Shown here one piece after another: positions 4,586-5,127 of a DNA stretch of 64,000 nucleotides. The notes under the pieces were generated by a model. The model was not told the origin of the DNA. It saw nothing but the letters and a program-made list of their open reading frames with translations, and ran no database searches. Source of the DNA: Escherichia coli. Lineage in GTDB: Bacteria; Pseudomonadota; Gammaproteobacteria; Enterobacterales; Enterobacteriaceae. How positions within the stretch are numbered: position 1 is the stretch's first letter; each line of letters opens with the position of its first letter. Position numbers and translations under genes: made by a program. The DNA is taken from the NCBI RefSeq assembly GCF_024502345.1, contig NZ_JALDNN010000001.1. One strand, written 5' to 3'.

Positions 4586-5127
4586 GTAAAAATCCTTATT
4601 GCCTCCGACCAGCGATCAATGCCGGTAGAGTTATCCATTGTATTATTGGTTATCTATGTTACTTTACATTAATGACAGTGATGGGTGTCGATTAAATATT
4701 GTTTTAAGCATTCATCATAAAAATGTATCATTCGTTTCAAAATATGTCTGTGTTTGTATGAATATATTATTTTCGTGGATTCTAATGATGATTATTAATA
4801 AATGTCAAATATGGAAGAAACCATATCTGGAAAAATTTTTACGGATAATTGATTTTATGAATATGATGATTAAAATTTCACAATTAAATCCGAAAAAAAG
4901 AGACGTAAATGCTTGTTAATTAACAAATGATATCTTCTATATATTTTTATTGTTTATAGGTTGCTATTTCGGTGAAAATACATTTTCAGAATATCAACCA
5001 GCGGTAAATTGATGTAGAGGGAGTGGATTGTTCAGTAATTAGGCGAGCAGACAGGGGAGTCCCCGCATTGACCAGCTAACGCAAGCCAGATGCGGGTTGA
5101 TACGATCGTACCAATCGTCTGAGGGGC

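What the first reader, a model, noticed from the sequence alone, without database searches (positions are those of the whole stretch)
4586..5127. Highly AT-rich region upstream of the lipoprotein–adhesin pair
About 400 bp (4600–5000) is far more AT-rich than the flanking core genes, with A/T tracts and no convincing ORF. This is typical of H-NS-bound, silenced promoters of horizontally acquired adhesin genes, and UpaG/EhaG-type adhesins are reported to be H-NS repressed.
Basis: partly seen in the sequence, partly recalled or inferred. Interest (0 to 1): 0.3.

Follow-up and report, generated by a model that had tools for sequence, protein, structure and literature searches.

The report
AT-rich promoter region of sadB–ehaG operon
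This is the ordinary, already-described kind of AT-rich control region that sits in front of an E. coli adhesin operon (lipoprotein SadB plus the EhaG adhesin) and is most likely kept switched off by the DNA-coating protein H-NS; it holds a well-conserved promoter but no hidden gene.

Summary
Window 4600-5000 has 27% GC against a window mean of 50%, which only 0.4% of 400-bp windows match. It is rich in A/T tracts and has no credible ORF.

Positions 4586-5127 are exactly the intergenic region between yibL and a SadB-type lipoprotein gene (3902-4585, minus strand). That gene lies 43 bp upstream of the trimeric autotransporter gene ehaG (start 3858), forming a sadBA-type operon.

On the minus strand the region holds:
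- a GC-rich hairpin segment at the 3' end of yibL (5020-5127);
- about 210 bp of AT-rich upstream DNA;
- a near-consensus sigma-70 promoter, TTGACA-18-TAGAAT (4808-4779);
- an AT-rich leader of about 186 nt, and a Shine-Dalgarno sequence.

Between deeply divergent alleles and genera the intergenic sequence is almost unalignable (about 53% identity). Its length, its AT-richness and the promoter block are nevertheless conserved.

H-NS silencing is plausible. The composition fits, and literature reports say H-NS represses UpaG/EhaG. It was not testable here.

The "horizontally acquired" part is weak. The locus sits at the same place in several enterobacterial genera, and K-12 lacks it through a deletion.

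This is a known kind of feature and of low interest.

The parts
5128..5490 (-). yibL (120 aa, ribosome-associated protein). This is the upstream neighbour; its stop codon marks the boundary of the variable sadB-ehaG cassette.
   Evidence: ORF; Pfam DUF2810 E=3e-32; RefSeq annotation of matching genomes. Genomes without the cassette match the window only from 5127 onward (rows H24-H30).
5020..5127 (-). GC-rich (0.556) 3' segment of yibL, with a hairpin CCCGCAT-N21-ATGCGGG (5096->5062). Probably the 3'-end or terminator structure of yibL. It is not part of the AT-rich tract.
   Evidence: GC; fold (z=-1.63, unremarkable). Every divergent allele has a different hairpin at the same place (alignment). 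The consensus scan calls no canonical U-tract terminator here.
4586..5019 (-). AT-rich core (GC 0.276): upstream regulatory DNA, promoter and 5' leader of the sadB-ehaG operon. Candidate H-NS nucleation and spreading platform.
   Evidence: AT-richness and length (480-560 bp) are conserved in 9 lineages although sequence identity is only about 53%.
4982..4992 (-). Conserved block ATTCTGAAAAT (minus strand), about 175 bp upstream of the -35 hexamer. Function unknown; candidate regulator site or distal promoter element.
   Evidence: Present with 0-2 mismatches in 8 of 9 lineages; among the top conserved 30-column windows. Not tested further.
4845..4874 (-). Second conserved upstream block, about 40-70 bp upstream of the -35 hexamer. 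It contains a TGAATAT/ATATTCA heptamer at a near-constant offset. Candidate activator or anti-silencer site.
   Evidence: mean pairwise identity 0.55; heptamer at -43 to -57 from the -35 start in 11 of the 12 alleles with a mapped -35, all but Pseudocitrobacter. Could be chance in AT-rich DNA.
4779..4808 (-). Predicted sigma-70 promoter: -35 TTGACA (4808->4803), 18-nt spacer, -10 TAGAAT (4784->4779). Predicted start near 4772.
   Evidence: 11 of 12 consensus matches, the best hit in 3700-5800. The same TTGACA-18-TA(A/G)AAT lies 172-194 nt from the sadB ATG in all Escherichia alleles and in Pseudocitrobacter. It is the most conserved 30 columns of the 9-lineage alignment, 0.70 against 0.41 for the rest. 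The transcription start has not been mapped.
4586..4772 (-). Inferred long AT-rich 5' leader (about 186 nt), ending in the Shine-Dalgarno sequence AAGGA (4597->4593), 7 nt before the ATG.
   Evidence: Distance from promoter to ATG is conserved. No significant RNA structure (z=-0.62). No Rfam family.
4688..4697 (+). TCGATTAAAT, the best local match to the H-NS high-affinity motif tCGATAAATT.
   Evidence: motif taken from Lang et al. 2007 (PMC2094087). The number of such matches does not exceed composition-matched shuffles.
3902..4585 (-). sadB-type inner-membrane lipoprotein gene (227 aa, GC 0.368), the first gene of the operon.
   Evidence: phmmer against PDB 4C47 (SadB), E=2.4e-67 over residues 30-227. 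RefSeq names it 'SadB/YajI family lipoprotein' or DUF3251. The DUF3251 Pfam hit is below threshold.
1..3858 (-). ehaG-type trimeric autotransporter adhesin gene. ATG at 3858, 43 bp after the sadB stop; it runs off the left end of the window.
   Evidence: Open frame and start codon; ESPR, YadA_head and YadA_stalk domains; RefSeq annotation 'trimeric autotransporter adhesin EhaG'.

Best explanation
Positions 4586-5127 are the regulatory intergenic region of the sadB-ehaG operon, which encodes a lipoprotein export helper and a trimeric autotransporter adhesin.

Reading the minus strand, the region contains in order:
- the 3' hairpin segment of yibL;
- about 210 bp of AT-rich upstream DNA;
- a conserved sigma-70 promoter, TTGACA-18-TAGAAT, at 4808-4779;
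- an AT-rich leader of about 186 nt and the ribosome-binding site of sadB.

The 27%-GC tract continues into the 37%-GC sadB gene. Together they most likely form a platform on which H-NS nucleates and spreads over the promoter, keeping the operon silent under ordinary conditions until some signal or counter-silencer relieves it.

Shown here: composition, anatomy, operon structure, promoter conservation, absence of a gene or a known RNA.
Taken from the literature: ehaG/upaG expression is H-NS regulated; sadBA is an operon.
Inferred: that H-NS acts on this DNA, that the promoter at 4808-4779 is the one used, and the position of the transcription start.
For: - Composition and A/T tracts.
- Operon anatomy: SadB homology; a 43-bp gap to the ehaG ATG and the adhesin domains.
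- Grin et al. 2014 describe sadBA as an operon located between mtl and lld.
- Promoter: 11 of 12 consensus matches. It is conserved in position and sequence across lineages whose intergenic regions are otherwise about 53% identical.
- AT-richness (minimum 300-bp GC 0.23-0.31) and length (480-560 bp) are conserved in all 9 lineages, and sadB is also low-GC in all lineages examined (0.37-0.42).
- H-NS-type features: AA/TT periodicity at 10.25 bp (p about 0.025); predicted bends at about 4899 (99th percentile) and 4725-4740 that flank the promoter; a near-consensus nucleation motif at 4688.
- Literature: H-NS is cited as a repressor of UpaG (PMC5012682). From my own memory of the Totsika et al. 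2012 abstract, EhaG and UpaG expression is regulated by H-NS.
- No rival content: no conserved ORF, no Rfam hit, single copy, chromosomal and unannotated in 2268 genomes.
Against: - H-NS occupancy of this exact DNA was not and could not be tested.
- Totsika 2012 is not held. I therefore do not know which fragment they assayed. It may have been the DNA directly upstream of ehaG, which lies inside sadB.
- H-NS motif matches are no more frequent than in shuffled sequence (p=0.14). Mean predicted curvature over 400 bp is only at the 83rd percentile. The curvature parameters were recalled from memory.
- Promoter-like hits in the region are no more numerous than in shuffles (8 against 6.9 +/- 2.9). 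The case for the promoter rests on conservation, not on a mapped transcription start.
- An 18-nt spacer is suboptimal.
- The strict pattern was not found in Citrobacter braakii. Its best hit is TTGACC-18-TATCAT, 232 nt from the ATG.
Confidence: 0.72

Rival explanations
1. It is an ordinary long promoter and leader region whose AT-richness reflects only the usual AT bias of non-coding DNA plus promoter and UP-element needs. H-NS plays no direct role at this DNA, and any H-NS effect on ehaG is indirect or acts elsewhere.
For: Other intergenic regions in the same window are as AT-rich or more so (yiaY-selB 0.233). H-NS motif matches are at the composition-matched chance level, and average curvature is unremarkable.
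Against: The tract is unusually long (434 bp at 27.6% GC, continuing into a 37%-GC gene). This property is conserved through complete sequence turnover. H-NS regulation of this adhesin is reported. The only more AT-rich long region in the window, upstream of lpfA1, is another adhesin promoter; I recall it as H-NS-silenced, but that was not checked here.
Confidence: 0.17
2. The AT-rich tract is the signature of a recently imported genomic island, or the relic of a mobile element that brought in the lipoprotein-adhesin pair.
For: Patchy presence in E. coli: this intergenic allele occurs in 2268 of 5426 genomes, and some genomes, K-12-like among them, match only yibL. Alleles are deeply divergent beside 95%-identical flanks. 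An imperfect 23-nt direct repeat (4608-4630 and 4997-5019) brackets the AT core.
Against: The position is the same, next to yibL, in Escherichia clades, Pseudocitrobacter and Citrobacter and, per Grin 2014, in Salmonella and Shigella, with K-12 carrying a deletion. ehaG has normal GC of 0.50. No integrase, IS or tRNA lies at the visible boundary. The region is single-copy and never on plasmids. By my estimate a 17-of-23 repeat is expected about once by chance in 700 bp, and it is absent from other alleles.
Confidence: 0.05
3. The region hides an unannotated small protein gene or a small RNA.
For: A 93-aa ORF on the + strand (4638-4919) and several shorter ORFs. A terminator-like hairpin at 4829-4806 on the minus strand.
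Against: No Pfam family. No peptide conservation between alleles beyond the promoter block. No Rfam match at E<=1 apart from a spurious miRNA hit inside sadB. Folds are no better than shuffles. The hairpin is not conserved. Nothing is annotated here in any of the genomes sampled.
Confidence: 0.04

Closest known systems
sadBA operon of Salmonella enterica (SadB lipoprotein + SadA trimeric autotransporter; Grin et al. 2014, PMC3953254)
   Same: - SadB homologue (E=2e-67 to PDB 4C47).
- A short gap to the adhesin gene: 43 bp here, 44 bp in Salmonella.
- Location next to the mtl operon and yibL.
- Absent from K-12 through a deletion of about 5 kb.
   Different: This is the E. coli EhaG-type allele. 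SadB is only about 52% identical to the Salmonella protein. The native promoter and expression conditions were stated to be unknown in that paper. The conserved TTGACA-18-TAGAAT block found here is a prediction, not a published mapping as far as I could check.
H-NS regulation of ehaG/upaG (Totsika et al. 2012, AEM 78:2179; cited in PMC5012682)
   Same: The same locus, a positional orthologue. The adhesin is reported to be H-NS regulated, which fits an AT-rich upstream region.
   Different: The paper could not be read here, so the fragment it tested is unknown. At that time the lipoprotein gene was not treated as part of the operon, so the published 'promoter region' may differ from 4586-5127.
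Classic H-NS-silenced AT-rich promoters (proU/proV, bgl, hilA, LEE/ler, lpf)
   Same: A long AT-rich tract spans the promoter and runs into the first gene. It carries A-tracts with helical phasing, predicted bends on both sides of the promoter, and near-consensus nucleation motifs.
   Different: No binding or derepression data exist for this DNA. No known counter-silencer has been identified. The locus is not a recent acquisition but an ancient, syntenic and highly polymorphic one.

Membership tests
H-NS-silenced regulatory region | An AT-rich tract (roughly 65-70% AT or more) of several hundred bp overlapping the promoter | tested here: met
   72.4% AT over 434 bp (4586-5019), continuing into 63%-AT sadB. 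The predicted promoter lies inside the tract.
H-NS-silenced regulatory region | High-affinity nucleation motif(s) tCGATAAATT (Lang et al. 2007) | tested here: inconclusive
   4 matches with 2 or fewer mismatches (7.4 per kb against 1.25 per kb window-wide); the best is TCGATTAAAT at 4688. Dinucleotide shuffles of the region give 2.1 +/- 1.4 (p=0.14).
H-NS-silenced regulatory region | Intrinsic DNA curvature or phased A-tracts near the promoter | tested here: inconclusive
   Predicted bends at about 4899 (45 degrees per 31 bp, 99th percentile) and at 4725-4740. AA/TT periodicity at 10.25 bp, p about 0.025. The 400-bp mean curvature is only at the 83rd percentile. The model parameters were recalled from memory.
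H-NS-silenced regulatory region | H-NS occupancy in vivo or in vitro, and derepression in an hns mutant | not testable with these tools
   Only second-hand evidence is available: PMC5012682 cites Totsika 2012 for H-NS repression of UpaG. The primary paper and ChIP tables are not held.
sadBA-type operon (SadB lipoprotein + trimeric autotransporter) | A SadB-family lipoprotein gene directly upstream of, and co-oriented with, a TAA gene, separated by a short gap | tested here: met
   SadB hit E=2.4e-67. Lipobox LTGC followed by D at +2, seen in the translation. A 43-bp gap to the ESPR/YadA-domain gene.
sadBA-type operon (SadB lipoprotein + trimeric autotransporter) | Conserved chromosomal position between the mtl and lld operons | tested here: met
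   mtlA-mtlD-mtlR-yibT-yibL lie on one side in the window. lldP lies beyond the adhesin in strain S88. The window itself ends inside ehaG.
Horizontally acquired genomic island | Atypical composition across the whole inserted segment | tested here: not met
   Only the intergenic region and sadB are low-GC (0.28 and 0.37). The visible 3.9 kb of ehaG has GC 0.504, equal to the window mean.
Horizontally acquired genomic island | Mobility hallmarks at the border (integrase, IS, tRNA, att repeats) | tested here: not met
   None lie between yibL and sadB. The only flanking repeat is a chance-level 17-of-23 match. The far border is outside the window; in S88 it is a REP element next to lldP.
Horizontally acquired genomic island | Absence from related genera, or a variable insertion site | tested here: not met
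   The same yibL-intergenic-sadB-TAA order occurs in Escherichia sp. E1V33, Pseudocitrobacter vendiensis and Citrobacter braakii. It is also reported in Salmonella and Shigella.
Sigma-70 promoter | -35 and -10 hexamers with 16-18 bp spacing, and a mapped transcription start | tested here: inconclusive
   Hexamers match 11 of 12 with an 18-bp spacer and are strongly conserved. The transcription start was not mapped.

The most novel reading that the evidence does not exclude
The AT-richness, the length (about 0.5 kb) and the promoter-to-ATG distance of this region have been held constant while the sequence itself has turned over almost completely: 53% identity between E. coli alleles whose flanking yibL is 95% identical. 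This suggests selection on bulk physical properties, that is, an H-NS filament platform plus a long leader, rather than on specific sites. It would also mean that H-NS silencing is an ancient, built-in control of a vertically inherited adhesin operon, not a response to foreign DNA. The two small conserved upstream blocks (4982-4992 and 4845-4874) would then be the sites of an unidentified counter-silencer.
Probability: 0.3. Interest if true: 0.35.

Novelty: already known. Interest (0 to 1): 0.15.

Why it matters
The main value is correct bookkeeping. The flagged region is the control region of the sadB-ehaG adhesin operon, not a gene, an RNA or a mobile-element scar.

The useful additions are a concrete, conserved promoter prediction (TTGACA-18-TAGAAT, 4808-4779, start near 4772) and two conserved upstream blocks. 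Grin et al. 2014 stated that the native expression conditions of sadBA were unknown, so these give testable handles on how the operon is switched on.

The analysis also corrects the assumption that low GC here marks recent horizontal transfer.

Tried and rejected
- Hidden ORF: the 93-aa + strand ORF has no Pfam hit. Six-frame peptides show no conservation between alleles except over the promoter block.
- Known RNA family: the Rfam scan at E<=1 gave only a spurious miRNA hit inside sadB.
- Structured leader or thermosensor: the leader fold has z=-0.62. The yibL 3' segment has z=-1.63.
- Mobile element or repeat: the region is single-copy per genome and never on plasmids. The flanking 23-nt direct repeat is at chance level and allele-specific.
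- Transcription-factor motif guesses made by eye were not pursued, because they are not conserved in the other alleles and are expected by chance in AT-rich DNA. Examples: an ArcA-like TGTTAATTAA at 4914-4923, and Fur-like ATGATGATTA repeats at 4785 and 4863.
- Literature:
  - Totsika 2012 and Valle 2008 are not held.
  - Lucchini 2006 has no held supplement.
  - Searches for ChIP data and locus tags gave nothing usable.
- Salmonella was not recovered by the genome-contig scan, which is limited by its search patterns.

Full report
**Observation**

The interval 4586-5127 is exactly the gap between two minus-strand genes: yibL (5128-5490) and a 227-aa lipoprotein gene (3902-4585).

Composition:
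- GC is 0.272 for 4600-5000 and 0.276 for 4586-5019. The whole window is 0.501.
- Only 0.38% of all 400-bp windows are as low, and this is the second-lowest spot in the 64 kb.
- A/T tracts of 4 or more are three times as dense as in the window overall, and TpA steps 2.3 times.

So the AT-richness is real and far beyond chance. Three corrections apply:
- The 108 bp next to yibL (5020-5127) are GC-rich (0.556).
- The lipoprotein gene is itself low-GC (0.368), so it is not a "GC-normal core gene" flank.
- Measured against 25 other intergenic regions of the window (mean GC 0.40, median length 177 bp), the core is in the low tail but not unique. It is, however, the longest.

**What the neighbours are**

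- The lipoprotein is a SadB homologue: phmmer E=2.4e-67 to PDB 4C47 over residues 30-227. RefSeq calls it "SadB/YajI family lipoprotein" or DUF3251.
- Forty-three bp after its stop, an ATG at 3858 opens a frame that runs off the left end of the window. The frame carries ESPR, YadA_head and YadA_stalk domains. RefSeq annotates this gene as the trimeric autotransporter adhesin EhaG.
- Grin et al. 2014 (PMC3953254) describe this arrangement as the sadBA operon. They place it between the mtl and lld operons in Escherichia, Salmonella and Shigella, report a 44-bp gap in Salmonella, and attribute its absence from K-12 to a 5-kb deletion.
- The window shows the mtl side: mtlA-mtlD-mtlR-yibT-yibL. Strain S88 shows lldP beyond the adhesin.
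- A K-12-like genome goes straight from the yibL stop to a REP element and lldP.

**Anatomy of the intergenic region (minus strand)**

1. 5127-5020 is GC-rich, with a hairpin CCCGCAT-N21-ATGCGGG. Every divergent allele carries a different hairpin at the same place. I read it as the 3'-end structure of yibL. The scan calls no canonical U-tract terminator here.
2. About 5019-4809 is AT-rich upstream DNA. It holds two short conserved blocks: ATTCTGAAAAT at 4992-4982, and a block at 4874-4845 with a TGAATAT/ATATTCA heptamer at a near-constant offset.
3. 4808-4779 holds TTGACA-18-TAGAAT, 11 of 12 matches to the sigma-70 consensus and the best hit in 3700-5800.
4. About 4772-4586 is an AT-rich leader of about 186 nt with no significant fold (z=-0.62). 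It ends in AAGGA, 7 nt before the ATG.

**Comparative evidence**

A genome-wide scan with a SadB alignment returned loci from other E. coli lineages, Escherichia sp. E1V33, Pseudocitrobacter vendiensis and Citrobacter braakii. Several fragments labelled as unrelated MAGs are evidently enterobacterial contamination. In every locus with enough flank, yibL precedes sadB with a gap of 480-560 bp.

Identity between the window and the B2-type allele of strain S88:

| Segment | Identity |
|---|---|
| yibL | 95% |
| mtlR | 97.6% |
| intergenic region | 52.5% |
| sadB | 71% |
| adhesin N-terminus | 66% |

Despite this turnover, several properties hold across lineages:
- All lineages keep a low-GC intergenic region (overall 0.30-0.36; lowest 300-bp window 0.23-0.31), and sadB is low-GC too (0.37 here, 0.38-0.42 in the four other lineages measured).
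- All Escherichia alleles and Pseudocitrobacter keep TTGACA-18-TA(A/G)AAT 172-194 nt from the ATG.
- That block is the most conserved 30 columns of the 9-lineage alignment: mean pairwise identity 0.70 against 0.41 for the rest of the intergenic region. It is more conserved than the adjacent coding ends.

This phylogenetic footprint is the main reason to take the promoter seriously. The raw count of promoter-like hits is no higher than in shuffles. C. braakii lacks the strict pattern; its best hit is TTGACC-18-TATCAT.

**H-NS**

I could test only sequence proxies.
- AT content and tract length fit H-NS targets.
- AA/TT shows 10.25-bp periodicity (p about 0.025).
- A wedge-model curvature calculation gives peaks at about 4899 (99th percentile of the window) and at 4725-4740, flanking the promoter. 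The 400-bp mean is only at the 83rd percentile. I recalled the model parameters from memory.
- Matches to the Lang et al. motif tCGATAAATT (PMC2094087) are six times denser than window-wide, and the best is TCGATTAAAT at 4688. Their number does not exceed composition-matched shuffles (p=0.14).

For experimental support I have only a second-hand statement. PMC5012682 lists UpaG among autotransporters repressed by H-NS, citing Totsika et al. 2012. My own recollection of that abstract is that EhaG and UpaG expression is regulated by H-NS. The paper itself is not held. I therefore cannot say which fragment was assayed, and it may have been DNA inside sadB.

**Rivals**

- Hidden gene or RNA: no Pfam hit, no conserved peptide, no Rfam family, no better-than-shuffle fold, and no annotation in the genomes sampled.
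- Mobile-element relic: the region is single-copy, chromosomal only and present in 2268 of 5426 genomes. The 23-nt direct repeat bracketing the core is a 17-of-23 match, expected about once by chance in 700 bp, and is absent from other alleles.
- Recent island: this is contradicted by synteny across genera, the normal GC of ehaG and the lack of mobility hallmarks.
- Plain AT-rich promoter region without H-NS: this cannot be excluded from sequence alone. It is disfavoured by the literature and by the conservation of bulk AT-richness through sequence turnover.

**Verdict**

This is the regulatory region of a known operon whose adhesin is reported to be H-NS regulated, a known kind of feature.

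The modest additions are a conserved promoter prediction, two conserved upstream blocks, and the point that low GC here is an ancient property of a syntenic, highly polymorphic locus rather than a mark of recent import. Interest is low.

Noticed in passing
window 56893-57236: The lowest-GC spot of the whole window (GC 0.215 over 344 bp) is the intergenic region upstream of lpfA1, the long polar fimbriae operon lpfA1-B-C-...-E. It is therefore another adhesin promoter with the same compositional signature. From memory, lpf is a known H-NS-silenced, Ler-relieved operon in EHEC.
   Followed up: partly
window 1-5127 compared with L002 (S88), L008, L009, L015: The sadB-adhesin cassette has at least three or four deeply divergent allelic lineages within E. 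coli. SadB protein identity is 55-69%, and the intergenic region is about 53% identical. The adjacent yibL is 91-100% identical at the DNA level. Divergence starts exactly at the yibL stop codon.
   Followed up: partly
window 2958-3858 compared with L001, L005, L006: The locus is a mosaic. The window matches strain 2824 at 99-100% over yibL, the intergenic region and sadB, but only at 73-77% over the first 900 bp of ehaG. It matches BL21-type and OkiPb01717 genomes at 97-98% over the first 300 bp of ehaG, but only at 93-94% in the intergenic region. This implies a recombination breakpoint near the sadB/ehaG junction.
   Followed up: partly
L002 6103-6786 (S88); L006 1559-2287: In strain S88 the sadB gene is annotated as a pseudogene (internal stop) while the adhesin gene is intact. 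In OkiPb01717 sadB is annotated 45 bp longer, running up to the ehaG start, so the normal stop is apparently lost.
   Followed up: no
window 1435-2511 (+), also 2981-3397 (+) and 430-759 (+): Long ORFs lie antisense to ehaG, the longest 358 aa with an internally repeated sequence. A 552-nt antisense overlapping gene, 'oloz5029', has been reported inside ehaG of EDL933 (PMC9927249). I did not check whether any of these ORFs corresponds to it.
   Followed up: no
window 15920-16108 and 19326-19507: Two further short, very AT-rich intergenic regions: yiaY-selB (GC 0.233) and yiaW-hypothetical (GC 0.297). Not examined.
   Followed up: no
L007, L011, L012, L016: Contigs labelled as Bacillota, Oscillospiraceae, Collinsella and Bacillus hominis carry E. 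coli-like yibL-sadB-ehaG sequence (SadB 64-97% identical, yibL 99%). This is almost certainly enterobacterial contamination or mis-binning in those assemblies.
   Followed up: no
window 4913-4926: A perfect 14-bp palindrome, TTGTTAATTAACAA, lies about 105 bp upstream of the -35 hexamer. By eye it contains the ArcA-type core TGTTAATTAA on both strands. It is not conserved in the B2-type or other alleles, so it may be allele-specific or chance.
   Followed up: no
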